Positions 664 to 27,609 of a stretch of 64,000 bases of DNA are shown here, in pieces (positions within the stretch are counted from its first letter, which is position 1; each line of letters opens with the position of its first letter). The stretch is from contig CM119371.1 of the NCBI GenBank assembly GCA_051294905.1, forward strand, positions 28,894,001 to 28,958,000. The letters are read 5' to 3'. The stretch is from Botryllus schlosseri. Taxonomy: Eukaryota. The notes beneath the pieces were generated by a model. That model saw only the letters and a list, made by a program, of their open reading frames with translations, searched no databases and had not been told where the DNA came from. The position numbers were made by a program, and so were the translations under genes.

Positions 664-2258
664 CACGGTGCTCGTAAACTCGTTGCGTAGGAGGTCTAGA
701 TCATCTACCTCGGCAGCTTCTGGAGTTTGATTCCCATTCATTGCTTGCAGCGCCTCGGCTTAAATGCAAGATTCATCAATTCAGTTACCAAGCAGTTCTG
801 TATTCACAAAGTCTGTAAGAGTATAAGTCTGCGTTGCTACGCATGTAGAGTAGACGTAATAACGTTAATCCAATCTCAATTAGAAGTAGAGGTAGAGATA
901 TTCAATCGATGTCAACACTACTTCTAATGAAATTAGGGTTTGAAAGGTACTTTTGGAAATTGATTCGGTGGTGGGGTCGCACAATTTTGCCAGCAAATTA
1001 TCAGGTTCGCTACCTCAGAAATTGAAAGCGAAAGACGCGTTCGTCACGACTAACACAGAATGACAGATGATGCCACAAATAGATGCAGTGGTAAAGAAAC
1101 ATTTCCGAGGCATTTTCACCCCGTATTTTGACAATTTTATGACAATTACATTGATCACGAAGAAGTGAAAGTATAGTCTAAAACCATGTTGAGTACAGAG
1201 TAGAAGTAGGGAAAATATACTCAACTACTCAAGAAATACTTTTGTTGACCCATTTTTACTCAATGTCTCATCGGGTGGATGCTGGAAATTTATGGAAGGA
1301 CTCGAATTTCCCTTTTCACGATAAAATTTTCATATTATCAAGTTAGCTGTTTTTTCACGTTAGTCAAGGTCTCATACTACGATAAAATCACCTTCACACA
1401 CAGCCAAGGCCTCCTTCAGTAAACCGCGCACCCACTTCTCGTCATCCCGAAACAGGGTTATGTTTTCGGCGATTATCTCCTGTCAATGGAATCACATCGT
1501 GACGGTTAGTCAACACGAAACAAGCTGCGGCCATTCAATAATACAGAACGTTCCACGGCGGGAATGTTCCGTAAATTCAAACATAAAAGAATGTTACACT
1601 AATAACCGTAGAATAACGCATAAATTGAAAATGGGCCACACCATATTATTCTATTTATTGTGAGCTATCGCCGCCGTTCAAAGCGCATTCAACCAGAAAC
1701 CGGGACCTGACTATATATGTAGCAATGTAGCATATAGTTGTTCATTTTTATGCAATAATGTGTTTCTCAGCCAATCAACCAACCAATCAATCTACGAACG
1801 GAAGTATCAACACTATCAGGGCAATCAATTTATCGACCTAGCTCCTTTGAAATAAGGAAACGAAATAAAATTTGTCTTTTCTGTTGCTCATAATACGCCG
1901 ATTAGTGGTAATGAAGGTTTATGAAGACTATTATTAGTAATTTGCCGTGAATGTAAGCATGAAAAAAATGCGAACACCTATTTCTATACTGCCGTGAATG
2001 TAAGCATGGAAAAAATGCACACACCTATTTCTATACGAGGAACCGCATCAATCCCCCAAAACGGCCACGCGTTCGCTAGGCCGGCCTTCGGGTCAATAGG
2101 ACGAACATCAAAATACACGCGTACTCAAATTCTACTGCCGTGTGCAGTTCGTAATCACCATAGCCTCACCAGTTTCGCCATACACGCGGTTTTGCGTTTA
2201 TCTTCCTCACTTGCAGCTTCCCGATAAAGATTCCGGAATTCTTGCCCTGGCATGTGAT
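664..2258 (-). pseudogene. Unrecognised multi-exon gene, copy 1 (putative exons 2258-2170, 1479-1392, 812-664)
   Basis: AG/GT-bounded, phase-compatible segments read MPGQEFRNLYREAASEEDKRKTACMAKL | EIIAENITLFRDDEKWVRGLLKEALAVCE | DFVNTELLGN*IDESCI*AEALQAMNGNQTPEAAEVDDLDLLRNEFTSTV. Splice sites are retained in the paralogous copies. Confidence 0.55.
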
Positions 2259-2569
2259 CTACGGTTTAAATTAAAATGTACATTATCGAAACGATACCAA
2301 GAATTTGTCATTATGATGGCGGAGGTCATCATGATGGCGGAGATGAGCAAACAGGGATTTGGATTTCATGTAACGGTATACCGTATTTGAGAACTTTGAC
2401 ATGATTCGGACTTGCAGTTGTTTCGAAAGTTCATTTCGATTTATACAAAGATATGGGCAAAGAATCCATATGCTTCTACTCAACTCCAAGTTACAAATGT
2501 GCAGAGAGTACACATGGAGCATGCAGGCAAAGTCAACTTGAGCTCTGATATGTGACTTATGACTTAAAG

Positions 2570-3173
2570 CAGTGGTTCTCAACCTTTTTGGCTTCGCGGA
2601 CCCCTTTTCACCGTGACGGACCTTCGCGGACCCCCTAAAGTTTTAGTTCAAATTTAGCACAATTATGGTGGGACCGTCATCTGTCTTGTGCAAATATAAA
2701 CTGTAGGCTTGTGATAACAGCCACTAAATGACTTTTCTTGAAAATAACACCATACTATTTATGTAGAAATTGGGTAGACTTTTATTATTTTTTTGCTAAT
2801 TTTGCAGCGATATTTCTTGAAGTAAGCGGTGATATGAACGAGTGCCGAGAATCCCTTTCCACAAAGATGGATGGAGGCTAATGTATTAACCAGGAACGCT
2901 TCAGACGACACTTTTGGTGTGCTCACAACATTTATCGCACCATGATGAAGAAACATATATTTAATGAACATATCACGTCCAGCTTACTCATTTTAATCTA
3001 GCATTTCATCTTGAAGTTATTATGAAACAGTGTTTATGTTAGTAATATTATTATTACAACACACGACGTTGGTGCTTATAGCCTATTTTAGGGCTTTGTG
3101 CTCCACGACAGGATATATTTCACGCAGTTTATTTTATCTAGAGGTCTCGCGGACCCCCGGTTGAGAACCAAGG
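2570..3173 (+). mobile_element. Non-autonomous hAT (Buster/Charlie-type) element
   Basis: TIR cagtggttctcaacc...ggttgagaaccaagg; TSD acttaaag/acttatag; internally similar to 52488-53264. Confidence 0.85.
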
Positions 3174-6100
3174 ACTTATAGTGTGGTGCCGCCGTCAATC
3201 GTCAATGCCGTGTATAATATAGGACGTATAGGCATTAGATAAAAAAAAATCGGAATAGCGAACATCAGGTACCTGTTGCGTATCCATAGCGTGCATCGTT
3301 CATCATCCTTTTGCTATTGTGATGACAAGGCTTTAACAAACGATAAATCTAAATACTTCAGGAAACAGAATGTAGCAGCACGTAAAAGACAACAGGAAAC
3401 AGAATGTAGCAGCACGTAAAAGACAACAGATGACAATTGGTCACTTTTAGAATTTTATGACCCGCGTATACTGACACTATCTAACAAAATACAAGCGTAG
3501 GATAAAAATCAAGTTACTAATAGAAAACTGCCTCACAAGTGTGGATGCAGGTAGGCTACTACTAAGTATGTTTCGACGCGGCACTCTAGTTCCAATGAGC
3601 GCCGATTTAGCAGGCGTCGAATCCTGTCTGTTGCGGTAACTCTGCTCTATAGGGAAATCGGCAAACGTTGCGTATCTGTCTTCTATTCTACTCAATATAA
3701 TCAATCGATCCAAATGAACAGTAATGCGGTTTATCTTGGTCAAAAGAAGATGCTTCAAGCGAGACTCGCAATAGTGGTTGCCCGTCTCATGCTCGATAGA
3801 ATGGAGCTCGACCAGCAGTAACGCATGCAATTTATAGTACTAGCGAAAAGATAATTGAACACTGAACAGTAATCAAACAATCAAAATCACTAAAATCATA
3901 AAATCACAATAATTGGAAAACCCGAATACAAAATAAGGGCAGTTACATTGGCGAACTGATTGCTCTAAAAACGTCCTCAAATCAAGACTAGCAAATAACA
4001 TGCGCAATCGCTAACAACGCATGCGTCGAGGCCTACGCTTTCAAATGAACCTCACGCTTATATTTATCGTTCAACTCGCGAGGACGTTCCGCCATGAACC
4101 AAAACATTGCCAATGAAGGAGGAGTTGCCTATACGCAGCACACTCGAGAAGAAATCGTCTTGCAGCTGAATTATACCTTTCTCAATATTGATATGACAGA
4201 GGTTTTCGAAGCGATATATATACGACGCGTTGAGACAGTAAGCTTTGAAATCTCAGCTGGATGTGTGGTGAAAAGCTGGGGTGGGTTGCGAAACAATGAA
4301 CTCCATTCCATTCTTTGTCCGTTTAGCTTGAAATTCGTATCACGGCTAATCCCAGACATTCAATTCCAACTGTGAAAAAATAATTACCAGCTTAGATTAA
4401 TGCTGTGATAGCTGGGATGCTGTGCTTTACAAGGACTTATAAGAATATAGTGCAATCGACTATTATGAAACAAAATACCAGCGATGGGAAATAATTGTGA
4501 TCTTAAAATGACTAATACAACAGCGTAGTGGCCTAATTTCATGAACTCCAGGGGTATATTTTAGGTGTCGTATGGGCTACACGAATTTGACCGCGGCGGA
4601 TAAGTGGATTTGGTGATATACATAATTCGGAGTCTTTGTCATGACAATATCTCACAGTTCCTATGAGCTTAGCAACTGTGTTTGGCGGAAACTAATCATT
4701 AAACCATGAGCGACAGCAATTGCGAGGCCTTTCCCACGCCCATGGGTGCCGCTTGAAGAAGTGGTAAATTAGGTCGACATGTAATAGAATTAAGAAGTAC
4801 AGATTATGACGATGACATTGTCGCTGGTTCTGTTATTTTCTACTCGCTCATGACACACAATGTACAGTGCGATGTAATGGGCAGATGGGAGGACATCGAA
4901 ACGTTCAAATACGGTGTCTCGATCTGGAAAGACCGTCTGCCTAATGCCCGATGTATCGCTCTTTTTCATTATCTTCCGTGAATTCCTCCTCGGCTGGGTC
5001 TTTTTCTGTGCATTTCTGTAAGAAACTGTGAGCATAGTTAGGCAGGGGAAGGCCACCAACTCGCCCACGTATTATAGCATTTGGGAAGGTGAAAACTCGC
5101 CGCTTAGGGTTATCGAAGTGCCAGGGGCCACTGGGCCGTGAACTATTTCGCTCTTTGAGAGGGTCCCGCGAGGTCAAGAAGGTTGAGAACCACTGATTTA
5201 GCCTCAAATGCCATATGTTCTGATAAGAATTAATGGAGTGCATTCCGTTTAAATAGGTTAGGGCGCATGTATCAAGTTTTCCACATTTTTATCAAATCTT
5301 TTCAATTGTAAATTGAAACGCAGCTTCTCGAGTACGTAGTGAAGATTGGTCACACGCAATTTTTAATTCGCATCTGCAACATGTCAAGGAGCTCCCACCA
5401 CGATGAGCTTTGACCATTTTGTCATTCTAATTGAAATACACGTAGTTCGGACTAAGTTAAATGAAATAGTTTGAATCGGGGGTTTATAGCCTGTGCCCCC
5501 GGGAAACCCAGGGGGCCCATGTGCCAGTCTAGGGGGTTGCTAGGAAGTAAAGACGCACTTTGAACTCTGTAACGTGTATTTTTCCTGGAAGGCTAAACTC
5601 TGTAACGTGTATTTTTCCTGGAAGGCGAAATCATACAGTCCTCATGATTTCTATTTACCCGGCATTTCAATCTTTATAGTTGACGCTGGGACTGATCTGA
5701 TACCTTATTTGCCGGTTTCGCATCCCTCAAACGTACTTTTTAATTTTATTTAATGAACTAAAATTCAGAAATTAGCCGCCGATAACATTCGGTTAATTTG
5801 ATTTCTTGTAATACTAATTGGTATGTAATTTTTGTCCCCTCGACCCCTAAAGAATTAGGAAACGACCCCATTGCGGTCGCGGCTCCTAGTTTGTGAACTC
5901 CTGATTTACACTCTGCAATTCTGCCATTGAAATGAAAAAAATTGGCGATTGCATGTGTACTTTCCTCACAATCCTGAAGCCGAATGCCCCTACATAAAAT
6001 TCAAAATCCACCCTAAGTGGACAGTGATGCCTTTATCGCTGGATAGTACCACTTTTATGCACGCAGCTTCACATATATACGGAGTAATGATTGTTGCTGC

Positions 6101-8370
6101 ATATAGCTGACGATGATGAGAATGAAATATATGAAGCTTACCATGGCCTGAACCGTAATCGACACCTTACGTCACTGTGCTCATCGCGCAAAGGAAGGTA
6201 ATGAAAAGAGCGAGAATGCCTAAAAAGAGGAACATGATGATCGAACACTGGCATTAGGCATACCAAATCGATGGCGCGGATTTTCAAAACATGATCACGT
6301 ATTTCAAGAAATGCAGCTACAGAAATCGCTTTCAAACAATGAAAGTCTACCCAATTTCTACATAGATAAACTGATGTTATTTTCAAGAAAATACATTTTG
6401 TTGCTGTTTATCGCTAAGCCAACAGTTAATATTTGGGCAGTCCGCGGGGGTCCGTGATGGCTAAAAAGGGGTGCACGAAGACAAAAAAGGTTAAGAACCA
6501 CTGCTGTACACAATAACTATAGCGACGATATATGCCACATTATGTCACATTGCGGAAGTACACATGACTTTTTGAACGTCATCAAACCTAATGTATCAAC
6601 TGGAGCAATCAAATGCTGTACGATAATCCCCCCAAATCTATATTTTTCGTCGCCTTGTCAACAATTTCGACGAGCACTTAACGGTCCAGGCCAGACCGGA
6701 CAATGTATTCGGCGTGTGAGTATTGCTACATTGATATTGAGCGGAGTGTAGAACGGACGGTCTACGCCAGCCCGGACAATGTATTCGGGGTGTGAGTATT
6801 GCTACATTGATATTGAGCGGAGTGTAGAACGGGTTTCTATACTTGCTACTGATATTACCCCATGATCAAGTTGTACAGTAGCCAACACTCCAATCGCACG
6901 GATTTGGTTTTTATGATACAAACATATTGAATCAAGATGAATCCCGAGAGCCTGCTAGATTTTTTACATTTAGTCAGCGATGTATGCTTTATATCAATTG
7001 CGTTGATTGGTTGAATAAGCATCATTCGCTGACTACTTGCATATTGTGTAATCCGTTCTTGATGTTGTGTGATTGTGGGTCAAGCTCACAGCAGAGAGTC
7101 ACTGAATATTCACAATCGGAAAGCTGATTATTTCGACCAGAATGTCGTGACAAAGCAAGTAAATTCTTGAGATTGGCAAGGTGCATGTCGCTCTCTTTCA
7201 GTGTTGAAATTTTTTATGCTGCCGGCAGCATGCATAGAGTGGTCCGAAGCTGAAATGCGAAGAATTTCAACCAAAGATGGTATGACCTGAAAATTGCAAT
7301 CTATCAAGACGGACGTCGCATCACAAATCATATATATATGAAAATGATCGAACTCGGTGGACTGTACAATGTTCTATACCATTAACATCATAAATCCGAT
7401 TAATATATGTGCACAGCCCATCATCATCCCGCAGCACTGCAAAGCGTTCGAGTAAAGCCTTGAGACTGCCCCCGGCTCGACTCAGAAAACGCGCACTAGA
7501 CTGCCAAATTCTCAGCTCGTCAGCTACCGCACATAGTCTCTGAATACCGAACAGCTCGAAGTCGAGCTGAATAGAATGCGAAGTATGACTCCAGCCCTGC
7601 TCAAACTCACTGAGTTGCGCTCTCTGAATACCGACGCCTTGCTAAACACCTCGCTACGCAGAACATGAGCAGTGAGCACCTCCGCAATCAACAGGCAATC
7701 ATAATACTCCCTGCGCTATTATTAATTATCTCCTACGTGGTCACTGGTCGGTCAACCCTTACGGGAATGCGCTGCCAAAGCAGTGCTTTCATTTCTGGGT
7801 TTATTGTCTCGAGCAGCTGTATTAACAACAGTTGGGGGAAGACTGGTCTTCAACACGAAACAATGTCCATGCGCGATTCGCTTTAGTCAGTTGGGATTGT
7901 TGTCACCCGTTATTCACTGCGTTTCGTTTCAGGAGGATAGGGGCAGCACGTGATTTCCGCGATTGAGATGTTTCATACGTCTACTCTATACAGTCCCGAG
8001 TTTTCATTTGTCTGCTATCCAGGTGCTGGTATAATTAGGAAATTTTCGATCACATCATGGATAAACATGCTCAATGCTGCGGCAGCCGAACGGAAAGTAC
8101 GCAAGTTGACTTCTGCAACAAAGGTATAATCAGTGGCTAAGCTGATGCCTTTACAAACAAGACGATAGTTGTTTTGTTCACCTGTGACAAGCAGATGTCC
8201 ACATTGTAGTGTATAGCATAATCATGACCATTGACTATCCGGATATTGGGATATAATATGACTTTACGCACATCAAAGCAAGCAGCGAGAACGGTTATCC
8301 GTTGGTTTTCTGTAGAATATAGGCTACACTTATGCAATGTAAATATAGGCATATCCGGAACTTCTGTTCA

Positions 8371-8955
8371 ACGCCACAATCACCTAATCATTATGACTTA
8401 CAGCCACGGCACCCGAGAATTCGCTATCCACCTACAGCTTGGATGAGTGTTCGCTGGCGGCACCCGAGAATTCGCTATCCACGCCACAATCACCTAATCA
8501 TTATGACTTACAGCCACGGCACCCGAGAATTCGCTATCCACCTACAGTTTGGATGAGTATTCGCTATCCACCTACAGCTTGGATAAGGATGAGTATTCGC
8601 TATCCACCTACAGCTTGGATGAGTATTCGCTATCCCCCTACAGCTTGGATAAGGATGAGTATTCGCTATCCACCTACAGCTTGGATAAGAGTTCGCTATC
8701 CACCTACAGCTTGGATGAGAGTTCGCTCGCGGCACCCGAGTATTCGCTATCCACCTACACCTACAGCTTGGATGAGAATTCTCTATCCACCTACAGCTTG
8801 GATGAGAGTTCGCTATCCACCTACAGCTTGGATGAGAATTCGCTATCCACCTGCAGCTTGGATGAAATTCGCTACAGCTTGGATGACAATTCGCTACAGC
8901 TTGGATGACAATTCGCTATCTACCTATACAGTTTGGACGAGAATTCGCTATCTAG
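8371..8955 (+). repeat. 30-bp minisatellite (gagtattcgctatccacctacagcttggat) with variant units
   Basis: About 15 degenerate copies visible; translates as (MSIRYPPTAW)n or (DEYSLSTYSL)n; preceded by a duplicated block at 8371 and 8481. Confidence 0.9.
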
Positions 8956-11094
8956 CTAGTCTCAACGAAGAAACTAAAAGCCTGGCGGATTTGAACAAGG
9001 CGATTGAGGAGAGCGCTGAAACTGAAAGGTTTGACAATGGAGTTATCCGGTATCGCTGTGACCGTTACCTGGCATTGCTGCGAGAAGACGTGCGATAGAA
9101 CAAGGATGTTTTCAATAGTTCTTATTGAAATCAAATTTTACGAGATGCATAGGTGCCTCGCTGTGGTAACAAGTTTAAATTGAGGGATTTTGACATTCAC
9201 TACTCGCATATATCAGTCCATTGGCAAGGTACTACAGAAGTAGGCCTACTGGTTTCCTATCGATATTTACGGAGCCAATTTAGCCATAGCGCACATTTAC
9301 ATTCGTGTATTTAACATGTCATTTAATATTTGTGTATTCATTTTTCTAGAATTCAGTTGCCGATAGATAACCGACGGTTCATGCCGAGTTTTTATCATTA
9401 TCATAATTGGTATCGTACCATTATCATAATTGGTATCGCACCATTATCATAATTGGTATATTTCATCATCATATTAAAATAGACCTGGCACCAATCAATT
9501 CATTTTTAAGTTGCATTTTCCTCTCAGCACTGCTGGTTCACCAAGCGACGAGGGCAGGGCACCCTCTGTGTCATTCCGTTAGACCTGGCCTGGTTGAGGA
9601 TACAATGAATACATATACCTCAGATTCGTTGACAAAGTTATGGTTTGGAAACTACATACCAGACAGGGTGCGATCAGAATGATCTCCACACCACTCCGTA
9701 TTGAAATGCAACCCGTAACTGCCTACAGAGGGGATGCGTCCAGTCTGGCTACAAATCTGGTGTATGTAGCTTACAATTAATTAATTAATTAACCGATCTA
9801 TACACATTGGGGTTTGATGATCGCTCTAGCATGCATCCCGGTGGTGTTCGTGACTATAACCGAAATCTTTAAAAATGAATGCAACCAAAATCGCAGATGG
9901 TTACACGACTAGAGCACGTTCGTCGGTAGCATCCATCTCATTTCGAATGTGAAAATTAAGCTAGGCAATTGTTGTGATACTTTCTTTTTCGCAAAGCAAC
10001 TGCTGTGATACCTTTCTTTTTCGCAGACTTACACCGGCTACGTATAACGCCTGCAACAGCCAGAACGCCCATTTGTCACAAAAAAGCGGCTAGGATAGCC
10101 AAGGCAGCGGAAATGGCAATGAGGATGGAGGAGTCAATTGCGACTTGCCGAAATGGAAACGCATCACCGAGAAAGAGCACACCTCTTGACTGAGTTATGC
10201 AATTCGAAGAGAGCGCAGTTGATCTTTTCCTCCGAGCATAAAAAGTGACACAAGTCGAAAAGCGAACCACCCTTCAATAGCCGACTACATTTTCGAGCGC
10301 GCAATGGTAAGATTTACTACATTCGTTTCATTTTTCGCATTTTTCTTTGAGACAAATAGGACTCCCAATAAGCTGCAGTGATGATCATTACAATAAGGGT
10401 GTGCGAAGTCATCTGCGACCTTGTGGTCAAATGTTATAACGAGGCGTCGCGACGCTACTCCATGATATTCCGGTATGGCTGAGCTATTTAATTTGCCATG
10501 ACATACGCGTGTTCTTGTCTTGGTGTTTGATTAACGCTGGTAGTCGAGTTGTGGGAAGACTTGTGAAGCCATCGTAGCTCAGGTTGTCGGGATGTGTCCG
10601 GTCGCGAGAAATTGAAACCAGTTTGGGACGACCAAGTCACATTGACTTAATTTTTGACCCGAGTCACGTTTTAGTCTCGAGACTAAGAGCAAAATTTTCG
10701 AGTTAATCTCAAGTCACCCAGTAATCAGAGTCAACTAAATCAATGAAGTCTTGTATATGTTCGCATTGTTCGCCATACGCTGGCGTGACTGATTTTGCGT
10801 TTTACCTCATTATTACATATCACAAATAAATTGACCGAAAACGCATTGATCAGAGACTAGAGAGAGCCCATGTAACAAACTTTTAAACTAGTAACGTAAT
10901 ATTGCATAGCAATATTTCATAGCAGGGGTTATAGATAGTTGCGAGTTCAAAAAATTGAGCATTCGAAAAATTGAGCAGTCTTAGTTTTAGTTGCGAATTT
11001 TTCAAGTTGCGAAGTTTAAAAAATGAGTAGGGCCTAGTTCTAGTTGCATTTTTCGAAAATCCAGTAGTTTTCAAAAATCCAGTAGATTGTGCAG

Positions 11095-11860
11095 TAGGGT
11101 TGTCCAAAATTTGGAAAATCTCAAAAAGTCTTCGTGATTGTGTCTCATTCTATAGATTATTGATAAAAAACAACAATTAGCCTGAAAGAAGCTTACAGGA
11201 AAGCCGTTAAGATTTCGGTCAAAGCGTTTGAAAGTAGCTGCTCAAGAATGGGCGTGCAACTGACCATAGAACGGCGTGCAACTGACCATAGAACGGCAAG
11301 AAGACTAGTAATCAAATAACCATGGCAGCAGCAGCTTGCTGATCAGGTGTCCAAGAAGTCTGCTACCGGCGGGGATTCTGAGTGCGCATTGTTAGTAGTA
11401 GTAGTTTGGCAGGTGATGATTTAAGATTAATTCAGGACATGTTGAGGTACGAAATCCATGATGAACAAACAACACCTGCTTCACAGAAGCTTTTACAGCA
11501 TGACTGCTTCATTGTGAAGGAAACGGCTGAAGCCTACATGTCGTGTTTTCATCGAGAGAAAGCAAAGGCGCTTATGCAAGTGTTGAGCGAATTCACCGTT
11601 TTAGTACGGATCCACCATCAGTGAATACAAATGTATAAAGCTTAACAATGACACTATACTTTGTGTGATCTTATTGGATCCAAGTTGTAGTATATAGTGA
11701 AGTATTGAAGGTTCTAGGGATCGACTGAATCGGCCGGTTATGCTTGGCAGTTATACTTACAGCAAATTGCATTCACTTATAAGAGTTGTCAAAGTCCTTA
11801 ATGATACTGCAGAATAGAGGTTCAAGGTAAGCACAGGCTATGTTGGATATGATATCCAAA
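11095..11860 (+). mobile_element. Decayed divergent-hAT (hATm-like) DNA transposon fragment
   Basis: A TAGGGTTGTCC-type end lies at ~11095. Peptide remnants DDLRLIQDMLRY...KLLQH and VKVLNDTAE*R...STGY resemble the NDL..L..Y...KL..H and VVND.AERGVK motifs of this group (recalled, not searched). 11135-11320 recurs at ~33070-33235. Confidence 0.5.
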
Positions 11861-12302
11861 CTATGCTTGATGCTATATGCAGCATAGTCTGTGCTTTTCT
11901 TTACACCTCTTTTCTGCGGGATCAATAAGGACTTTGACATACCATATCCAGCACAGCCTGTGCGAGTGTGCGTACATTACCACCTCTTTTCTGCGTTATT
12001 ATTAAGGACTTCAACAACGCCTACAAGTGCATTCAATTTGTTGTACGCATCTGATAAGGGCCAAGCATAACCGGGTGATTCCGCCGATCAATAGAGCATT
12101 TAAAACGTCACCTATACTACAGCTTCAGCCCAATAACATCACACAACGTATAGTGTCATTGTTAAGCTTTATATATTTGTATTCACTGATGGTGGATCCG
12201 TACTGAAACGGTGAATTCGCTCAACACTTGCATAAGCGCCTTTGCTTTCTCTCGATGAAAACACGACATGTAGGCTTCAGCCGTTTCCTTCACAATGAAG
12301 CA
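11505..12302. repeat. Long inverted repeat (~350-bp arms) derived from a transposase remnant
   Basis: 11505-~11668 is the reverse complement of ~12140-12302 with about 3 mismatches. The inner arms (to ~11855 and from ~11940) are still alignable but clearly more diverged. Confidence 0.9.
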
Positions 12303-12505
12303 ATCTAATGGAAAAGTCTATATTATGTATATATAAGCAACACAATGCAATGTGTGATCTCACAACGCAATGTGTGACCTTATAGGTCAATGACTGTAAT
12401 GTTATGTAAGCTAACCTTACAGCTTGCCTTCGTTCAATCAGAAATTGCCTTACTTTCTTAGTGCTTAATTGCTTCACCGCCTAAATTGGCACTTTTTATT
12501 TAAAG

Positions 12506-13194
12506 CAGGGCCGGCCAACCCGTGGCCCGCGCGGTCATTTCCGAAATTTCTAATATCATCAAAAATGGATTGCACAGATTGTGAACTTGCAATGCCAACC
12601 AAAAATTTGATTGGTCAGGCCGCAACACTTGAGATGTGATGACTAAAATATCAGTTCCGACGCCATCAGCCTTTTACATATTGGTATATCTTCATTCACT
12701 ACAATAAAGCAGAATAATTTTCGGTAGATTTATCGAAGGTTAAAATTTTCTACAAGCTAGGCGCAACATTTTGTCACTCGATTTCTTGTTTTTAATATTG
12801 TTGCCCTTTTGTGAAAATGCCCTTTTGTGAAAATGGAAGAACACCTAATGTATCAAATTGAGTCTAACTATATTCGCGATTACGAGACAAAGTGTCGTTC
12901 AACATATGCGACATTGCATTTGCGCTCGCAGTAGGACCGTCGACTATGAAACCTAGGCACGAAATGATTGACGCATGTTGGTCGCATCTTTCGATATCGG
13001 TATGTCCAAGCGCCGAATAGCCCAGTCCTCGCAAACTTGGCCCAACGATATACAGCAGGCCCGCTATATAGTCGAGTGACAAGATTATTGACCTATGAAC
13101 TTGAAAAAATTTTCGCGCTTAGCGCGGCTAGTGGCCCGCGCAATCATTCATCGATCGAATGTGGCCCGTTGGCTGAAAAGGTTGGCCAGCCCTG
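12506..13194. mobile_element. Non-autonomous hAT element
   Basis: TIR cagggccggccaacc...ggttggccagccctg; perfect TSD atttaaag. Confidence 0.9.
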
Positions 13195-13516
13195 ATTTAA
13201 AGTATACAACAATATGACTTTATAACTCAAATATGACCTAACCAGGAAAATATGACTTTATATGACTTTATAACTTTCTTAATACACCCCATAGGGCCGT
13301 GGTTTTCGCGTTAAAAATGATTTCACGACTTACTAATGCATAGAAAAAAATATCACTTTAATGACTTTAAATGGCCCTAGTTATTACTCTGTCACATTAC
13401 ACAACATTTTTAGCCCAAACCAAAGTTATATTCGAAAACTTGACCTTCGAGACTCTGGAATTTTTTTGGTACTTATTTTGGTACTTAGTGTCACTACCTC
13501 AAAATATTAATCGCAG

Positions 13517-13770
13517 ATATGGAAAGTTATCGGTGTCAGCTATGTGATGTGCAGTTCTCGCGAAGACATCGATTTGATGCGCATATGGCTATCCAACTAC
13601 GGGGATGAAGCAAAGCAATGCCGCCGGGTCTGTGCAAAAGAGTTCAACCGGAAATCCAATCTATCCGGACATATAGCGACGCATTACAACTTGAAGACGC
13701 ATCGATGTTGGATTTGAGACCGGGCATTTATGAGAGGGAGCGATCTGAACCGACACATCACACAATGAAC
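13517..13770 (+). pseudogene. C2H2 zinc-finger pseudo-exon (about 3 fingers), absent from the ORF track
   Basis: tcgcag|at ATG gives MESYRCQLCDVQFSRRHRFDAHMAI. After a frameshift it reads YGDEAKQCRRVCAKEFNRKSNLSGHIATHYNLKTHRCWI*DRAFMRGSDLNRHIT. Confidence 0.8.
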
Positions 13771-14666
13771 CTTGGACAACAAGTACCGGTAATTAGTCGT
13801 TTCACAACTCGCGAGTCTAGATTACTTTTTACATCTGTGCTGCGACGCATCTTCCATAGCCATAGGCTACAGAGATTTACTCAGTAGAGAAAATCTCCCA
13901 TGTTTAGATCAAGCGAGGATAGTGAAAAGGAATGTTCCCGTGTAGAGGAGAAAACCACCCGCGCTCTTGCTTTATAAATGCGTTAAGATTACCATATCAC
14001 AATTCAACTTGTGCACAACTATGTGCGTCAAGTACAATGTACGCATGTTGGATTGGAAGTATGCAGCTCGACTGAAAATAATCAGGTTTATAAGGAATAT
14101 ATTTCAGTGATCAATTTTCAATCAACAGTGAATAATAATTAAGCGCTCTGTTAAGAATTGCTTTGCGGACCGGATAAAATCATCCCGCTGTCCGGATGCG
14201 GCATGCAGGCCGTATGTTAGACACCGCTGGTCTACAAGAGCCCAGCCGCTGGAGAGCAAAACTACTGTCGAAATGGTGTTAAGTGTACACTCGTAATCAT
14301 TGTAGAGATTAATGAGCGCTGTTTTGTTCAGGGCTTGTGTCCCTCTCATTCGGTGCCTATAAAATGTTGACCGACCGATCGCTTGCATATCAGAAATTCT
14401 CTGCGGAAATATTGGCATCTCATATTATCTCAATCTGCTCGAATGCAGGTGTGAGAAGAATATTGCAAGCTGCGAGGTATCTGCGAAATATTGCAAGCTG
14501 CGAGGTATCTGCGAAAGTGAACCGGTTTCTATAAATCAGAGTCCACATCATGTCAAAGTCCTGAATCCGGTATCCAAATATCCAAATCCCAGTTACCCAT
14601 CTCCGCCATTACGATGGCTAATTCTTGGTATCGTGTCGATAATGTACAGTTTAATTTGAACCGCAG

Positions 14667-17554
14667 ATCACATGCCAGAGCAAGAATTCAGGAATCTTTA
14701 TCGGGAAGTTGCAAGCGAGGAAGAGAAACGCAAAATCGCGTGTTTGGCAAAACTGGTAGGGATATGGTAATTACGGAGCTGAACACTGAACAGTGCACAC
14801 GGCAGTAGAATTTGATTACGCGTTCATTTTGACGTTCGTCCTGTTGACCCTAAGGCGAGCCCAGCCGACCCGTGGCCGTTTTTGGAGGATCCACGCGGTT
14901 CCTCAGATAGGAATAGATGTCCGCGGTTTTTCCATACTTACATTCACGACAAATTACAAATTATATTCTTGATAAATATCACTAAGCTAATAGCAGCAGA
15001 AAATACACATTTTATTTGGTCGATAAATTGATTACCCCGAAAGAGTTGATAGTTCGGTTCGTAGATTGACGACAGGTTGATTGGTTGGTTAGAAAACACA
15101 ATATTGCATAACAATGAACTTGAACAACTATACCACAATAAGCGTAGGTATAAGGTACCGACCGGTTTCTGGTGGCACGCGCTTTGTACGACGGCGATAG
15201 CACCCAATAAATGTTGTATGATATTGCGTGGCTCATTTTCAATTTCTGCGGTATCCTATGGTAGTATTGAAACATTCTTTCATGCTTACGGATATTATTG
15301 AATGGCCGCAGCTTTTTTGTTGTTGACCGACCGTCACGATGTGATTCCATTGACAGGAGATAATCGCCGAAAACATAACCTTGTTTCGAGATGACAAGAA
15401 GTGGGTGTGCGGTATACTGAAGGAGGCTTTGGCTATGTGTTAAGGTGATTCTGGGCGTATTACGGGACTTGACTAACTTGAATAAACAACGGGACTTGAC
15501 TAACTTGAATAAACAACTAACTTGCTCCGACAGGCTCTGTGAATGCAGGACTGCTTAATACTGAATTGATGAATCTTGCCCTCAATTCGAGGCGCTGCAA
15601 GCAATGAACGACGAGAATCAAGCTTCGGAAGCTGCAGAGGTAGATGATCCAGACCAACTACGCAACGAGTTTACGAGCACCGAGGTAATTTAACGATAGA
15701 TACCGTATTATTGAATGGCCGCCGCTAGTTTTCTTGTTGACCAACCGTCACGATGTGATTCCAATGACAGGAGATAATCGCCGTTACTCGGTGCTGATTT
15801 ACTGTATCCAAGTCGATTTTGCCATTCATTTATTTAACCAAAATTGAGGATAAAATCTCACAGAGGAGGACATTTGGGTGTCCTCCGAGGACACTTTAAA
15901 AAAAAGTGGACAAAGACGTGTGGTAACCCTATCATAAATCATCTGATGTTGTTTACCGCCGCACAGGTAAAGTTTGAATTATATTCAGTACGAACCGGCG
16001 AATAGTATTTACGAGACTATAGCGAGGGGGGACTATAGCGATGGAAGGGAATTATGAATGAAGTTCTTCGTTAAGACTATAGTTGAGCAAGATATAGTAC
16101 GGGCTATTATTGAATTTTTTCGCATGCTTGCTAAGATGTGTATTGGTAATCAAATGGTGTTTCGAATAGTAGTTCAATCACAATAATTTGCTTGATAGCG
16201 TTGGACTTGATATAAATGATGACTTTGGCCTTTTCCGTGACCTGAAATGTCAGTTTGGCGGCAGTGAACAGCGTGATACTTGTCAAGTTATTTATTGCTC
16301 TGAGCGTAATGCGTACTACCGGTCCGTTGGTATTTCAATGCTAAACCGCGGAAAAGTGTCGTTACCCATCACCGAATCTTGACGTGTTCTAGTTATGGCT
16401 TTTATATTAATTCATCAGCCCAAGTTTTGTCAACAGAAGGAGCTCGTGTACCATCTTAAAAAGTACATTGAACACTCTTGAGATACTTTTCACGCTGGTG
16501 ACGTCATATCTCATACGATTGTTGATATACAATGTTCTTTCCAATTTTCTAGTCTAGTTGCTGACGATTAGCTCTTGACGAGTGTCAGCCGACTTCTATT
16601 CAACAATTTTATGCGGGAGTTCTGTCCCTCCAAGAAGCTCTTCAAATTCAACACTCGAACAAAATCGTCTTTTGCTACTGGATTCAGATTCGAGTACTCG
16701 AATCATTGTGCCCGGCCCCAATCAACTCTGCGTCGGGCCGCCTCTTGAATGCAGTCATCAATTGGTGACTGTCGAAGCTAGATGGCGAACTGGGTTATCA
16801 GTTCGTTGGAGGACGTCCCTTGTCTCGCACATGGGCCATGTGACATGGCCTTCGCCAAGGACATAATCCTTACGACCATGAATACCAGGTGCAGTTGGAA
16901 TTGGCGGAGTGCGGGTTTTAAAGATCAACCCGTTCACGTGCGCGAGTCTTGGTTCATGACGACGGCAAGCAAAAAACCTGGGCGGTCAGCCCTCGTGACC
17001 AACCGATATCGCCGAAAACATAACCTTGTTTCGAGATGACGAGAAGTGGGTGTGCGGTATACTGAAGCAGGCTTTGGCTGTGTGTTAAGGTGATTCTGGG
17101 CGTTTATTAATTATGGGACTTGACAACTAACTTGCTCTGACAGGCTCTGAATGCAGAACTGCTTATCCACTAAATTGATGAACTTGCCCTCCATTCGAGG
17201 CGCTGCAAGCAATGAACGAGAATCGAGCTTCGGAAGCTGCAGAGGTAGATGATCCAGACCAGCTACGCAACGAGTTTACGAGCACCGAGGTAATTTAACG
17301 ATTGATACATTATTATTGAATGAATGGCAGCAGCTTGCTTTGTTTTGTCGACCAACCGTCACGATGTGATTCGATAGCAGAAAACATAACCTTGTTTCGA
17401 GATGACGAGAAGTGGGTGTGCGGTATACTGAAGGTGGCTTTGGCTATGTGGCCTCCAAGTCGAGGCGCTGCAAGCAATGAACGAGAATCAAGCTTAGGAA
17501 GCTGGAGAGGTAGATGATCTAGACCAGCTACGCAACGAGTTCACGAGCACCGTG
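14667..17554 (+). pseudogene. Unrecognised multi-exon gene, copy 2, with tandemly re-duplicated exons
   Basis: Inverted paralogue of ~510-2420. Exon 14667-14755 reads MPEQEFRNLYREVASEEEKRKIACLAKL; exon 15357-15444 has GAA>TAA; an acidic exon lies at ~15534-15685. Further copies occur at ~15705-15783, ~17005-17290 and ~17310-17554. Confidence 0.55.
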
Positions 17555-17932
17555 GTAATTGAAAATTGATACTGTATTCGAATAATATGTTTCATGCGTC
17601 ACATCGTTTTAATCTGAGTCACCGGGAAGAGTTTCTATTGCGTGATAAGAGTACCCTGAACCCAATGCAAGTACTAACCCCGTACTAACTCAAAACCTCC
17701 ACTATTTTGAATTGTATTTTTCACTCAGGTTACGGACATTGATATAATTGTGATTTGACTTGTTTACTCAACAGGTCAGACACGCGGACATCCTACACCA
17801 GCTACGGTCCTGCTCTAGCACCTAAGAGCGATTCTCAAGGGTATATGACCCTTATCTTTACCATTCAATTGCATAGTGTGGAGAATATTCGACTGCTCAC
17901 TCTACGGCAACATTCCAATTATGTATGTATAG

Positions 17933-18560
17933 TGATGAATTCCTATCGATGTTCGGTTCGCGCGCACCTGTTCGCGAAGAGAAGTACTATTAAAGTCCAT
18001 TTAGCGACGCACACCGATGTCAAGAACCACGAATGTGAGATTCGTGGTTCGAAGATTCCTTCAAACAGGAAATAATCTCCATACACACACAGTGGGACTC
18101 TTCGACGTAAAGAAGCACGGATGCGAGGATTGCGGAAGACGTTTTGCTAAAAAAAAAGCACATTGACCACTCACGCACGCTACAGTAAAAACATCTTATG
18201 GTTGTGAGATTTGCGAGAAATATTTCCCGCGGACAAGTACTCTACGCGGTCATTTGCTAACGCACATCGGGTGTAAAAATCACGGTTGCACCTACTGCGG
18301 GCAAAGACGCAGGCCCGGGAAATGCGGACCAAGTGCACGAAGAAGGGCACCGACAGTCTCGAGAGACTCGTAACCCCGGAGAGGCACGGTCGGATTCCCG
18401 AGGACGAAATGTGTGCATGTTTCGTTCGTCTCGTGTATCGGTACGGTGCAAAATGTTTTTACGCAGATCCTCACGTTTTCTCAGACCGTATTTAATCTGC
18501 GACGTATCTCATCATTGGTTGTGCGCGCACTGCGGCGCGAAGCGAACACATGGAATAAGG
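17933..18560 (+). pseudogene. C2H2 zinc-finger pseudo-exon (5 or more decayed fingers)
   Basis: tgtatag|tg ATG gives MNSYRCSVRAHLFAKRSTIKVHLATHTDVKNHECEI. Other frames give KHGCEDCGRRFAKK and SYGCEICEKYFPRTSTLRGHLLTHIGCKNHGCTYCGQR. The 3' limit is approximate. Confidence 0.8.
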
Positions 18561-20656
18561 AGACGTACGTTCACGAAACGGTGTATCCGTCAGCAAGGCG
18601 CATTGCGCGAAAAAGCGAATATGGTTATTAGACTCGTTACAGTGTAGAAAGGCACGGGACTCGTTACCGTAGAAAGGCACGGTGTAACACGGGCTGACGA
18701 AACGTAAGTACTTCGCGTGTCGGGTCGCCAACCAGTATGTCGAGACGATATTTACGCAGGAGTGACTAACAAGAATGGAGGAAAACTTGGAAAATAGGAC
18801 GTCACTCGACAGCCGGTCAAATTTTTAGTCCGCGTATTACCAAACGTCAAGCTGGAGCAGCCACTCATGCTGCGGAGACTGAAAGACAACGACAGGCTCT
18901 GCCAAACCGAGTGGTATGTCACTGAACAACGCATTTAGGCCGTTGGACTCTTCTCCGATACCTCGGATGTCACTCGATAGCTAGTTTCTCAAATCCGGAT
19001 CCTTTTGACAGCGGACTGGGCTGCCCCACGTGCATGCCGGAGATACAGTGACAAAGCCGAAAAGTCTGGGACACTGCAGGCACCCAATCGGCGACGTTGA
19101 TGGGCGCATGTTTGACGACTGTTTCATTTTAGACTTCGCTTATAGTAAACTTCTGTGCATTTTTAGACATCTTCTTTTCATGGAACTTCTTGGAGGTGCA
19201 GACCTTCAATATATATACACAAGAGAATAGTAGAATAGTATATTCTTATCTAAATGAACCCGAATCACAATGTTATTTCCCATTATCTAAGAACCCGAAT
19301 CACAATGTTACTGCCCATTATCTAAGAACCCGAATCACAATGTTACTGCCCATTCTCTACACGAGTTGCTGACGTTACCCCTGACGAGGGTCAGCCGAAA
19401 GTATTTTGACTCATTTCAAGGTATAGTAGAGTGGGCTCATACGAATATATTTCTCTCATCTTCTTTGTTTATCTGCCGTTACGTAGAGGCCCCTGTTTAT
19501 CTGCCCTTTTTATCTGCCGTTACGTAGAGGCCCCTATTTCATATTTGATTCCGAATTGCAAGTCCCTTACCCTTTTTACTGATGGTATCCAACAACAAGT
19601 GTTAGTTGAGAAGCTTGCAGCTATCATCAACTGGAGGGGCGATTTTTTTTAGGGGCCTCAGCTACTCTGATAACACGCTGAATCTGTGTCGTAATTATCA
19701 CCGAATTGTGTCGATTATTGCTATAGTAGTGATTGAAACAGTGGTATTGAAACTGTTGATATTCTGGTGTGAAATGCAAGGTAGTAGTGGTGATATGTCA
19801 TCGTTCTTCCACTGGCATGGTGCAGATCAAGATTTACAATGAAGGGTTCACGGAGTGGTTAGTTCTTCAGATATTTTCCTGACATCGACCACATATTGAT
19901 CTTCGACTAGGCCTATTATTGAACAATCTAGCATCAAAACGGAAAGAACATTAAAAAGACGTGCGTGCAGACCCCTAATCAGTTTTTTACACACCTGGCC
20001 GACCCTCCCGACGTTTTGCAGTCAATATGAGGGTTGTCTGACGATACGTACAACAGTAAACTATCTCGTCAACCTTACACCCACACTCGCCGAGGGAGTG
20101 GTGCACCGGGTACTAGCCCGACCTGCCAGCCGACATCTATACTGATGTGGTGCGTTCTTTACCATATTCATCATATACTGGTGCACCGGACGCGTGCGCA
20201 CCAGCATGAGTTATGCCTACAAACCGCCGATCGCAACGCCTGCATTGGTTACAACTATATGTGAAAGATGAAGGACGAGAAAGGACTCATCAAAGCGGGG
20301 TCAGTGGACGTGACGCTGATCGGTGACGTCACCAGAATATCGTAGAGCTGGTAGTTTCAAATACCATGCATGAAGTCACGCTCTCCAGAACAAAGATAAA
20401 AGGAGAGCCGTTATCCGGTATTCGTCGATACTGGTGAACTCGCGATAATAACTCGACAGGTGGGTAAGATCATATATTATTACTGATCTGATCACTTTTC
20501 GATTGCCATAGTTTGAACTAGTAGTTCTCCTGCTCTGTGTATTTCGCCCGTCGCTTAGGATGCTAGCTGAACAAGGGTATGAGATACAATACAGTCACAA
20601 GCGTCAACAAGATGCAGATAGATACGTAGACACCGTAGGTCTAACACGTAGCAAGT

Positions 20657-22500: not shown

Positions 22501-25500
22501 ACACCAATGGTCTGATAAAGTTCCAGACACGAGCATAGATATCGTGTCGAATCAAGTAGATTTGCATTAACTAACCACTGTAAAACATCACACGCTGTTG
22601 CGCTACGATCAAACGTGGTTTAATTGCTCCGCACCAGCCCCTTAACCCTTTCAAAATCTCTAGTTAAACAACTTCATATGATCATATCTTAATTTGTGTA
22701 CGTCCTAGAGGCCTCATATTGATTTGTACGAAAAGCTAGCCATCTTCTGATTTATATGATCCCTAATTCGAAGGTATAAGGCACAGGGTTGTAATGACTC
22801 GAGTCACGAATTTTTGGTGACTCGACTTGACTTGAGTCATTTTCTTGAAAAGGGAAAATGACTCGACTCGACTCGAGTCAATATTTGGATTGAATCGTCT
22901 TGTACTCGAGTCATTACGCATGACTCGACCCAAGTCATTGACTCGGCATATTTTATATGACTTGAAGATGAAGAAATTTGCGAATCGTACTGGCTAGGCC
23001 GTGAAACCTTGATTGGCCGTGTTTGGGCATACCAGGCACAGTTTAAAGCTACGAACGTTACTGGAAATAACACATTTCCGAAGTCATTATCATCCAACAA
23101 AATTGTTAAGAAGTGCAATGAAATCGGTATGGTCGAAAAATTACCAAAGTATCTTTAATGAGATGTATAACAGGTATTACGCTCTTTGTGGTGGCATAAA
23201 AGGTTTATATTTGGACTTCGACATAGTGCATCCGGTTGTGACGTCATAATGAGTGATACTCGATTACTCGACTCGACTCGAAGCATATTACGTGATTCAG
23301 AATCGAATCACGCAGGTACTAAATTTTGCCCAGCCCTACTCATAACCCCTCGTAACGACGAATGGCTGATTGGATACACGCTTTCTCGTCTGTTTGTTTT
23401 GTGCTATTCATCATGTTTTTTTACTACAATGGTTATTTACACCAGGCAGGGATATATAGAACTCCGGGATGGCTGACTGCGTCATCGCGGTATTACCTTA
23501 TGGGTCCAGATTCGCGCATTCAGTTTTGATGCACGTTCCGGTCAGCCGCTTCGTCTGTGTGTAATTTTAAGTTTTTGAGAGCGTTAGAGGCATATGATAT
23601 CCATGTTTATGTTATTATATAAAGCTAGAGGTTTACTAGGTTATGAGATGTTCAGGTAGTCTGAAACTTTGCGGTATTAGCCCTATTCCTTCAACAGCAA
23701 TTTAACGGTATACCGGGCGGTACGGTCATTTACTCGCCTTCGGAATATCTCTGCTTGTGTAGTATCTTAGGTAACATGTTTTGCCGCGCTGATAATCGTG
23801 AGAAGATAACAAAATGTAGAATAATTTCCAACGTTGACATTGATATCCGCAGTATGATTTTGATTACGCCTTGCGGTATGTTTTTCATTTACCGGTATGC
23901 TATGCGAATGTATGTCACCATCCAAGGCTGTACACTGTACAGTGTACATTGTACAATTACAAGTGTACATTTACACTGTGCCGTGTCAACTATGAAGGCG
24001 ACCGTTAGGAGGGACTTCGTCAGTTAAGATCTTGTACTATAGATTAATGTGTGAATATGCAGGTAGTGCTGGTATTGCAGGTTTACCGGTATTCCAGATC
24101 ATTGCTGGATTATTCCTAGTAAGAATTGGAGCCACTGAGTACACCACCGGTGTGCAAGATTCAAGAGGCATTTCAATTAAGGATAACCAAACATTTAAAT
24201 CTAATACAAACACAACACGTCAAGGTCGTTGCAGTTGTAAGTGTCCATAACAACTGTTGAATCCAATCTCTTGTTACAGATACTATTCATCAGTTACATG
24301 TCTAGTAAAACAAGGCAGGCATATGTTTGTTCATGAACGGCACCTCAATACTACAGTACTGGAATTATACTTCAACAGAAGTGCACTGTTGTGAACTGCC
24401 AATGGCTGACTCCCAGTATATGGCCACAGCATTTGTTGACCATTTGCTCTTACTGAAGCCATGAAGATGCCCACTCCCTTGAATGGATAAGCCAACACAA
24501 TCGTCAGGACACGATACGACCCTGAGATACGGCCTGTCTTTACCATATAAACACTTATAGCCTATAGGCTATATAGGCCTGTACGATGGAGGAAGAGAAA
24601 ACTCTGAAGATTGCTTTCAATTTGCAAGGTTTAGTCAAATCATCGCAATAACGCATGAACGTCTCCTCAGTCGGCCCAAGGTAAGTTTGGTTGATTCTAG
24701 TGATACGCTATTAAATGAGCGATTTACATTAATCCTGATGTGGTTAAAGTAGTCTGCATTGCTACTCAAGTAACAGTTGTATTCCCGGGCGTACGGTATT
24801 TAAACTTCCTCAAGTAGCTGTAGAAAGTGAAATGCCTGCAAGGTACTTAAGTTTGGAGATGGCTGCTTCAAAATTACAAGATGTATCTTCGAAAATAGGC
24901 AACACCTACTTGAGTACTGCAGTGAAGTAGAAGTTCTTCATTACTGACCAACTCTGCATACATCTTTATATATTCCTAATGTTAATTTGTGTCTCTAAAT
25001 ACATCATTTGTTCATTTATGTTGCAGATTCCGGAAAAACAAACGCGATGTTCCAGCATTTGCATCACGTCAACAGTGGATATCCTGATATAATATACTGG
25101 GCACATTCCATTGAAATCTTGGCAAAGATGGCCACGATCTGAATATTTGGATCTCGTGCCTCCTCACCGAGATGAATTTTTGTCATGGAATCATCTATCG
25201 GAAAATCTGCAAGACAATGATACTGAATATTTCTTAGCTGATAAATGGCATGAAATGCTTCAGGAGGCCCATTCGTGATGTACCGTTAAGCCATGGTGGT
25301 ACTTTCTTCACTGCGGTCATGAAACTATTTCTCGGTGAACAAAATATCAGCTGAATTCAACAACTGGGTCTACCGAATGCTTCTTAAATTGATAATGATA
25401 TGTACCAAACTGCTACCCTGGCTACATTTGAACCTGAAGAGAAGTATCAATGGTGTGTTGATTTCTTGATCAACTTTCATTGAGTGACATAGAAGCTGAC

Positions 25501-27609
25501 AATGCTGCCATCACAATTTCGAGTTCTTACAGGCCGTGCTATCTTTTCGTTATTGGAAATGCTCCATGGTAGGGGTGCATTTAAAACAAACGGTGTTTAA
25601 AACATGCTTCAAACAGTGTTTTGAACAAAGGCCTTTTGAAAAAAATTCTTTTTAAGTTGTAAAATTATGCCATAATTGTGTAGATACTTTCCAAAATACG
25701 TGTTGTATGAGCCTACGGACGATTACCACCCGATATAGCCGACTAATATCGATATGGGATGGCTGGAACCCTCAAAATAGTCGGTTCAACAGCAATAGCC
25801 CAGATATTTCGTCAAAGGAGGTATAGTTACATCATATTTTCAATTGTCAATGTCAATCCAATATGACGTCACTATTGAATATTCTTGACGTCATGGCTTA
25901 AAAAAGTATGTTTTATACAAGGGCCTGGTTTTAAACATGTTTGTCGATTGTAATTGTCGATTAACGCGAATTGAAACGGTTAATTTAACCAATCCTATTA
26001 ACCCCCCCCCCCCCCTCCCAGCTGCAAGGTTTCCGACACTGGCTTGTAAATAGGTAAAAGACGCTGATATTATTCGTTATTCACCCTGTTATTCATGGCC
26101 TGATGCAAATTATATGATGTGTAGAAATTAAACACATTCATGATTTACTGAAATTCAGAGCTGTCATAGTTTACTTGGTTGGCTATACAGCAGTGTCACA
26201 CTTTACTAGGTTGGCTATACAGCAGTAAGGTTGTGATAAGGGAAGAATGTCTAGCTTATTCACTAACTATTCCGCAAATGGTAGAGGATCGTTATTCTAG
26301 AAACAGCTGTATCGCTAGCTTGCAAAAAAGTGGATATTTCGAGGCAGATTGCAGGTAACTTTCTGGACCTACTTAGGTAAAGGCCAAAATGAAGTCAGCC
26401 ATCCCGGAGTTCTATATATCCCTGACACCAGGCCAATATTCTTTATTATGATTCCGCATCTGAAGACTTGGAGCACGGTCCACTTCCAGCAGATCGGATG
26501 GCGAGGAACCTACATAAGCGTTTCACGTCTGTAATCATCTGTTACATGCAGAACCTTAACCGCTCGACCCAATTCCCCAATTGGTGCATCGAGCTTGAAG
26601 AGAGACCAAAATTATCTCAGGAATCAACATAAATTATTGAGTATTTGTTGGAAGCGTTATTGAACTTCTTTCAAATTTTCTTGGCGCGTTGCGCGAATTG
26701 GCATTGTTAAAAGTCTTGGTTTTAATACCCATCTCCCTAATAGAATAATACGCATAATTTATAAAAATAGGCCTTTCGATGTCGGCCATTACTGCGCCAT
26801 TACAGACCAAGACATATGAAGTTTTGGCCAACATGCGATTCCGCGAATTGTGCAGCCAAAAATGTCGACAGTGAGAAAACCTCTGCCGAAAAGCATCGAA
26901 ACCTTCAGTGTATGTATGCTGAATTGTCCATGGACTATATACGGTAGGCGCCTAAATGACTGTCTCCAAATATTGCTGTCGCCAAAAATTCGTAGTAGTA
27001 TATGTAATTGGCAATATCATTGACCGAATGCCATCATGAATTTCGAAAAATATTCACGCTAGGCGCGACCAGATAACTGTAACACACTGACAACATAAAA
27101 ACTGGCACCCACGAGCAGTGGTTTAAACATTAATCGCGAAAGGGCGTCTAGCTGGTCGCGACATGAAATTTGGATGAAAAGTGGGTCGCGAACTGAAAAA
27201 GGTTGAGAAGCACTGTACTAGAACATACGCCATTCGAGTAGATGCATAAAATACGAATATATCCTCCTCCACGCAGGCTACACATCATGCATTTATGATA
27301 TGCATGTGCATTTGGGTTGTTCAAAAATATCTTTTTCCGGATCCAGTGATTCACTGACTAATTGTCAGGTTACCCTAAAAACGCTGCACACAAAATTTGG
27401 TTCAATTCCAACAAGTAGAAGCCGCCGCAGAGACAATTAAAATTCTTAATTACATATGAATAAAAAGAAATTGAAAAAAAATGAATTCTTCTGTCACTCC
27501 CATGTTGAGTTGTCTTCAAAAACGATGCAAAACAAATATGACTCAATTCCAACCTGTAGAAATGAAGATACTGCAGTTGAAGGTGCTGAATTTGCAAAAA
27601 TAGCAATGT

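What the first reader, a model, noticed from the sequence alone, without database searches (positions are those of the whole stretch)
664..18560. Unrecognised spliced N-terminal module upstream of a zinc-finger exon: candidate lineage-specific ZF effector domain
Seen: three short AG/GT-bounded, phase-compatible exons, none in the ORF track, are conserved between an inverted pair of copies (2258-664 minus; 14667-17554 plus). Two read as amphipathic helices (MPEQEFRNLYREVASEEEKRKIACLAKL; EIIAENITLFRDDEKWVRGLLKEALAVCE) and one is acidic. The plus copy is followed ~380 bp later, on the same strand, by a C2H2 exon at 17933. Established: KRAB, ZAD and fish FiNZ genes place small effector exons ahead of a finger exon. 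Inference: this may be an analogous undescribed effector-plus-ZF family. Caveats: the copies here carry stops, and the acidic exon ends in phase 0 while the finger exon starts in phase 1, so a bridging exon is required.
Basis: partly seen in the sequence, partly recalled or inferred. Interest (0 to 1): 0.75.

Follow-up and report, generated by a model that had tools for sequence, protein, structure and literature searches.

The report
Orphan exons duplicated among zinc-finger remnants
Three small protein-coding exons with no known relatives occur in a better-preserved copy and in a broken duplicate wedged between two dead zinc-finger exons; they may be leftovers of cluster duplication or the front end of a zinc-finger gene, and this window cannot show which.

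Summary
The three exons are real: phase-compatible, mostly strong splice sites, dN/dS about 0.4-0.5 between copies (p=0.06). But introns are 84% identical too, so the inverted pair is one genomic duplication, not two independently conserved genes. The plus copy is dead: no 5' exon, E1 followed by three broken E2-E3 repeats. The C2H2 exon at 17933 is dead as well. E1 is an internal exon, so 'N-terminal' is not shown. No relative was found in Pfam, PDB or 1.84 billion proteins, but the host's proteins seem absent there. KRAB and SCAN tests failed; FiNZ, ZAD and PRDM9 layouts do not fit. For a link to the fingers: same strand, 378 nt gap, a candidate bridging exon (24 of 600 random intervals have one as good). 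Against: the other three finger exons in the window have no module upstream, and both finger remnants start with an ATG two bases after the acceptor. No RNA reads were laid. Best reading: duplicated pseudogene in a zinc-finger cluster (0.5); a real module-plus-finger gene stays open (0.38).

The parts
2170..2258 (-). E1, better-preserved copy; 89 nt, phase 1 to 0, no stop
1392..1479 (-). E2, better-preserved copy; 88 nt, phase 0 to 1, no stop
664..812 (-). E3, 149 nt, phase 1 to 0; two in-frame stops (783, 762), both inside a 30-nt GT..AG stretch (788-759); distal 758-664 is open and acidic
4056..4095 (-). candidate start exon of the minus copy (ATG, 13 codons, phase-1 donor at the 92nd percentile); inferred, untested
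14540..17747 (+). decayed segmental duplicate; homology to the minus copy begins in the intron before E1 and reaches at least 17747
14667..14755 (+). E1, plus copy, no stop
15357..15444 (+). E2 copy a, stop at 15441
15534..15684 (+). E3 copy a, 151 nt, frameshifted
17008..17289 (+). E2-E3 copy b: E2 acceptor missing, same stop as copy a (17086), E3 with indels
17374..17554 (+). E2-E3 copy c: acceptor lost, E2 fused to distal E3 out of frame, stop at 17495
17729..17774 (+). candidate bridging exon, 46 nt, phase 0 to 1, one stop; unproven
17933..18330 (+). dead C2H2 exon, about five fingers, one canonical; acceptor then ATG two bases in
13517..13790 (+). second dead C2H2 exon with the same acceptor-ATG layout, about 750 nt upstream of the plus duplicate and with no module before it

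Best explanation
E1-E3 are internal coding exons of an orphan, helical and acidic protein segment (about 90-110 residues) whose better-preserved copy runs leftwards out of the window on the minus strand. A genomic (unprocessed) duplication copied it from the intron before E1 onwards into a zinc-finger cluster, where the E2-E3 unit was then tandemly triplicated and decayed, partly after it was already dead. The plus locus makes no working protein. Its position between two dead C2H2 exons comes from the duplication churn of the cluster, and the finger exons of this subfamily most likely start at their own ATG after a non-coding upstream exon. Shown: exon anatomy, intron homology, lesions, copy relationships. 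Inferred: coding status of the parent, the start codons, and that the adjacency is incidental.
For: Introns 84% and exons 89% identical between copies. Homology starts at 14540 and the minus copy's upstream 2.2 kb has no counterpart before the plus copy, only dispersed repeats. Copies a and b share one E2 stop (15441, 17086); a, b, c are closer to each other (5-9 differences of 93) than to the minus copy (11-13). A six-frame profile search finds only 2 E1, 4 E2 and 4 E3 copies, next hit at most 2.9 bits, so none lies upstream of the finger exons at 13517, 29773 or 55343. Both remnants have Met five residues before the first Cys, seen in 0 of 33 fingers of the two long arrays. The two long arrays share an acceptor followed by a shared in-frame TAG and non-triplet indels, so their 5' part looks non-coding. 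The plus duplicate is as close to a finger remnant upstream (about 750 nt) as downstream. The patch of the minus copy that matches the bridge acceptor reads CAT, not CAG.
Against: A phase-correct bridging candidate with strong sites exists; 24 of 600 random 378-nt intervals have one at the 95th-percentile cut, 66 of 600 at the 90th. Colinear homology to the minus copy's downstream intron continues into the gap (0 of 300 shuffles, 0 of 300 genomic controls), firmly to 17747 (1 of 300; 8 segments tested), leaving under 190 nt for a breakpoint. Only 8.7 kb upstream of the 55343 exon is visible, and what follows the minus copy lies outside the window.
Confidence: 0.5

Rival explanations
1. The plus locus is one dead gene, E1-E2-E3-bridge-fingers, and the minus copy is its better-preserved sister whose finger exon lies left of the window. 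The helical, acidic segment would be a protein-interaction or cofactor-recruiting domain carried to DNA by the fingers, working like KRAB or FiNZ without being related to them.
For: Same strand, 378 nt gap; bridge 17729-17774 with acceptor at the 99.8th and donor at the 98.9th percentile and phases 0 to 1; intron homology through the gap to 17747; phase-1 acceptor shared by two finger remnants; dN/dS 0.37 for E1+E2 and 0.50 overall; four finger loci in 64 kb; acidic composition as described for FiNZ and KRAB (PMC10547256, passages).
Against: No module before 3 of 4 finger exons; the bridge holds a stop, its donor is a CAG|GT that looks like a duplicated acceptor (seen in the sequence), and its acceptor is not kept in the minus copy; no significant homology beyond 17770 (31-217 of 300 controls); purifying selection not significant (p=0.06); ATG right after the finger acceptors.
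Confidence: 0.38
2. The exons belong to, or were captured by, a mobile element (for example an intron-containing transposase or a Helitron-type carrier) and were spread with it.
For: Repeat-rich window with many dispersed repeats; no cellular homolog found.
Against: No transposase or other element domain by Pfam in the read-through or in the three plus-strand frames of 15300-17000; only two E1 copies, joined by shared introns; no terminal repeats bounding the duplicate in the self-comparison.
Confidence: 0.08
3. The 'exons' are chance readings of a non-coding duplicated segment.
For: Exon excess over intron identity is small (p=0.057); E3 has stops or frameshifts in every copy when read from the 812-type acceptor; E1 acceptors are weak.
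Against: Six donors at or above the 95th percentile and four acceptors at or above the 96th with matching phases in both copies; no indel in 177 nt of E1+E2 while the introns are full of them; dN below dS in all 8 comparisons.
Confidence: 0.04

Closest known systems
Unprocessed (duplicated) pseudogenes and gene fragments in tandem C2H2 zinc-finger clusters
   Same: Exons copied with their introns, 5' truncation, tandem sub-duplication, shared and private stops and frameshifts, dead finger exons on both sides.
   Different: The parent gene cannot be named: no relative was found in any library searched.
FiNZ-ZNF genes of cyprinid fish (PMC10547256, passages read)
   Same: Short, glutamate-rich segment with no database match, upstream of a finger exon.
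   Different: FiNZ is 28 residues in a single exon directly before the finger exon and is conserved over hundreds of genes; here three exons, about 90-110 residues, a bridging exon needed, two copies, and no link shown.
KRAB-ZNF genes and ancestral KRAB of PRDM9 (PMC4592553, passages read)
   Same: Small helical exons; E1 holds a short RNLYRE stretch like part of KRAB-A (11 aligned columns).
   Different: No Pfam KRAB hit, hhalign probability 6%, the first half of KRAB-A is absent, and no SET domain lies between the module and the fingers.
SCAN-ZNF genes
   Same: A recalled resemblance in E2 (WVR followed by an acidic helix).
   Different: Profile score at most 2.0 bits, hhalign probability 0.5%; spacing does not fit.

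Membership tests
KRAB-ZNF | KRAB-A domain match | tested here: not met
   Pfam: 0 families for 5 of 5 module peptides and for the read-through. Own 12-sequence KRAB profile: 0.2, 0.4 and 5.9 bits for three spliced models; only the last beat all 300 shuffles, on an 11-column match, probability 6%.
KRAB-ZNF | effector exon spliced in frame to a 3' finger exon | tested here: inconclusive
   Phases 0 and 1 do not join directly; bridge candidate has a stop; no RNA reads were laid.
PRDM9 | KRAB, then PR/SET domain, then fingers | tested here: not met
   378 nt between E3 and the finger exon; Pfam finds only finger families over 17743-18075.
SCAN-ZNF | SCAN domain match | tested here: not met
   3-sequence SCAN profile: 1.0-2.0 bits, reached by 8-31 of 300 shuffles; hhalign 0.5%; no Pfam hit.
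ZAD-ZNF | four zinc-binding cysteines in two CxxC pairs (recalled definition) | tested here: not met
   No CxxC pair in E1, E2 or E3 translations; no Pfam hit.
FiNZ-ZNF | single 28-residue exon directly upstream of the finger exon | tested here: not met
   Three exons and a phase mismatch; definition from PMC10547256 passages.
FiNZ-ZNF | sequence similarity to the FiNZ consensus | not tested
   The consensus is in a supplementary figure that was not read.
Lineage-specific effector-ZF family (general) | same module upstream of many finger genes | tested here: inconclusive
   In the window 1 of 4 finger exons has it upstream; no whole genome is held.
Unprocessed pseudogene (plus copy) | introns copied with exons, disabling lesions | tested here: met

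The most novel reading that the evidence does not exclude
An undescribed three-exon helical and acidic domain is the N-terminal effector of a lineage-specific, probably ascidian, C2H2 subfamily, an invertebrate-chordate counterpart of KRAB and FiNZ; the minus copy is a live member whose fingers lie left of the window.
Probability: 0.17. Interest if true: 0.72.

Novelty: new member of a known kind. Interest (0 to 1): 0.3.

Why it matters
As a duplicated pseudogene it is ordinary, apart from marking an unannotated orphan gene. If the module proves to be spliced to fingers in many genes, it would be a new accessory domain for an invertebrate-chordate zinc-finger expansion and would let one test whether transposon-silencing effector domains arose again outside tetrapods, insects and cyprinid fish. 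One genome search and one read alignment would settle it.

Tried and rejected
Homolog searches, all blank: phmmer of the minus copy read through its introns against 1,835,955,588 representatives, 0 hits at E<=0.001; word-indexed search with E2, 0 of 4 candidates, and E1, 0 of 2; PDB sequences 0; ESM Atlas best scores 0.83 and 0.75, below lead level. These blanks are weak: the control query, a 583-residue finger array from this window, found at most 42% identity among 120 listed hits, so the host's proteins are probably not in the collection. DNA scans with E2 gave 1 of 214 metagenome and 6 of 25 viral candidates, 13-20-residue matches; 2 of the 7 loci were read and are unrelated prokaryotic ORFs; rejected as chance. 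No whole genome is held. No RNA holder listed among 24 runs; nothing was laid, so there is no evidence on expression either way. tblastx between the upstream regions of the two long finger arrays showed only matches that coincide with dispersed repeats, no shared exon. Earlier scan notes: no look-alike by sequence or place. Recalled SCAN and KRAB resemblances were tested and dropped. No structure was predicted: only 30-residue single exons or intron-filled read-throughs were available as input. Literature: five searches listed no paper on an ascidian zinc-finger effector domain; the library lacks most subscription journals. PMC12448946 (passages) gave only repeat-content background and is not used for any claim about this window.

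Full report
Setting. The window is animal DNA, 37-46% GC, rich in dispersed repeats, with four C2H2 loci: long arrays on the minus strand near 27.6-29.7 kb and 53.5-55.2 kb, and two remnants on the plus strand at 13517 and 17933. No whole genome is held. Earlier scan notes call the genome a sea squirt's; I did not test that.

Observation. The three exons exist in both orientations with AG/GT ends and matching phases 1-0, 0-1, 1-0. With weight matrices approximated from recalled consensus, their six donors rank at the 95th-99.8th percentile of GT sites in the window, the E2 and E3 acceptors at the 96th-99th, and the E1 acceptors at the 67th and 80th. E1 opens in phase 1 and is thus internal; a possible start exon lies at 4095-4056 on the minus strand (inferred). 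E1 and E2 are modestly amphipathic (87, 93 and 159 of 2000 shuffles as high) and distal E3 is acidic.

The two copies are one genomic duplication. Introns align at 588 of 700 bases and exons at 288 of 325 (p=0.057; E1+E2 alone p=0.017). E1+E2 show no indel in 177 bases. dN/dS is 0.37 for E1+E2 and 0.50 for all three exons, with 10 of 28 changes synonymous (one-sided p=0.06). This fits a parent under purifying selection and a copy that has drifted, but it is not significant.

The plus copy is dead. Its homology starts inside the intron before E1, and the minus copy's upstream region has no counterpart before it. After E1 come three E2-E3 units. Units a and b share a stop at the end of E2; a is frameshifted in E3; b and c lack the E2 acceptor; c is fused out of frame and has a stop at 17495. 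The three are closer to each other than to the minus copy. The minus copy has open E1 and E2, and two stops in E3 that both fall in a 30-nt GT..AG stretch; a very short intron or a weak acceptor at 758 (73rd percentile) would leave it open. Whether it is alive is unknown.

The finger exon. 17933-18330 holds about five fingers, one canonical, with stops at 18073 and 18164 and 59-63% DNA identity to the long arrays. The remnant at 13517 has the same layout, an acceptor and then ATG two bases in, which supports the acceptor. Met at that position occurs in 0 of 33 fingers of the long arrays, so it may be a start codon. The long arrays share an acceptor at 29773 and 55343 followed by a shared TAG in the finger frame and non-triplet indels, which also points to translation starting inside the finger exon; an alternative acceptor at that TAG is possible for the first array.

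For a link between module and fingers. The gap is 378 nt on the same strand, a 1.25% event for a given point before selection. Of 9 AG..GT stretches with the right phases and at most one stop, one, 17729-17774, has strong sites; 24 of 600 random intervals hold one at the 95th-percentile cut, 66 of 600 at the 90th, and 2 of 400 at its own scores, a post hoc cut. The gap is colinear with the minus copy's downstream intron (0 of 300 shuffles and 0 of 300 genomic controls), firmly so only to 17747 (1 of 300, among 8 segments).

Against the link. A six-frame profile search finds no further module copy, so the finger exons at 13517, 29773 and 55343 have none upstream within 13.5, 23 and 8.7 kb. The bridge holds a stop, its donor looks like a repeated acceptor, and the matching patch in the minus copy reads CAT for CAG. 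Nothing beyond 17770 matches the minus copy (31-217 of 300 controls), and no finger motif lies in 1-660. The duplicate also abuts a finger remnant on its upstream side. No RNA reads were laid.

Known families. Pfam gave nothing for 5 of 5 module peptides or the read-through; PDB, 1.84 billion representatives, two word-indexed searches and the ESM Atlas gave nothing usable. A control finger array found at most 42% identity among 120 listed hits, so these blanks say little about close relatives. Profiles built from fetched KRAB (12) and SCAN (3) proteins gave one result above all 300 shuffles in 6 tests, 5.9 bits on an 11-column KRAB-A-like stretch with hhalign probability 6%; this is not membership. 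FiNZ is a single 28-residue, glutamate-rich exon directly before the finger exon (PMC10547256, passages); PRDM9 with ancestral KRAB occurs in tunicates but carries a SET domain (PMC4592553, passages). Neither layout fits. Five literature searches listed no ascidian effector domain (listings only, except the three papers read in passages); supplements were not read.

Verdict. The exons are real and orphan; the locus beside the fingers is a pseudogene. I put incidental adjacency in a duplicating cluster at 0.50, one ancestral module-bridge-finger gene at 0.38, a mobile-element origin at 0.08 and non-coding chance at 0.04. A family-wide effector domain, the novel case, is about 0.17. Interest 0.3.

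Noticed in passing
window 13517-13790 +: Second dead C2H2 exon (about three fingers) with the same acceptor-then-ATG start as 17933 and no module upstream.
   Followed up: yes
window 788-759 -: A 30-nt in-frame GT..AG stretch contains both stops of the minus E3; a very short intron or an alternative acceptor would leave the copy open. The GT is absent from the plus copies.
   Followed up: partly
window 29773-27600 - and 55343-53490 -: Two long C2H2 arrays (13 and 19 Pfam fingers) with HAGIKNHEC-type linkers, at most 42% identical to listed database proteins; they share an acceptor, a branch-like site and an in-frame TAG near the exon start. The first decays into frameshifted fingers at its 3' end.
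   Followed up: partly
window 24580-25560 +: Decayed relic that looks spliced (donor at 24681, acceptor near 25028) with several frameshifts; no Pfam match better than E=0.12.
   Followed up: partly
window 11502-12305: About 800-nt imperfect palindrome, 80% identity between arms.
   Followed up: no
window 8370-8960: Tandem array with a 30-nt unit (11 copies) that keeps three reading frames open for 133-233 codons.
   Followed up: no
window 15706-17007 +: A partial extra E2 start (15706-15783) followed by 1.2 kb of unrelated sequence; a 7-base word is repeated at both ends, as after an insertion; 64 nt of it recur at 19337-19398.
   Followed up: partly
window 4095-4056 - and 3306-3271 -: Two candidate upstream exons of the minus copy, each with an ATG and a phase-1 donor that would join E1 in frame.
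   Followed up: partly
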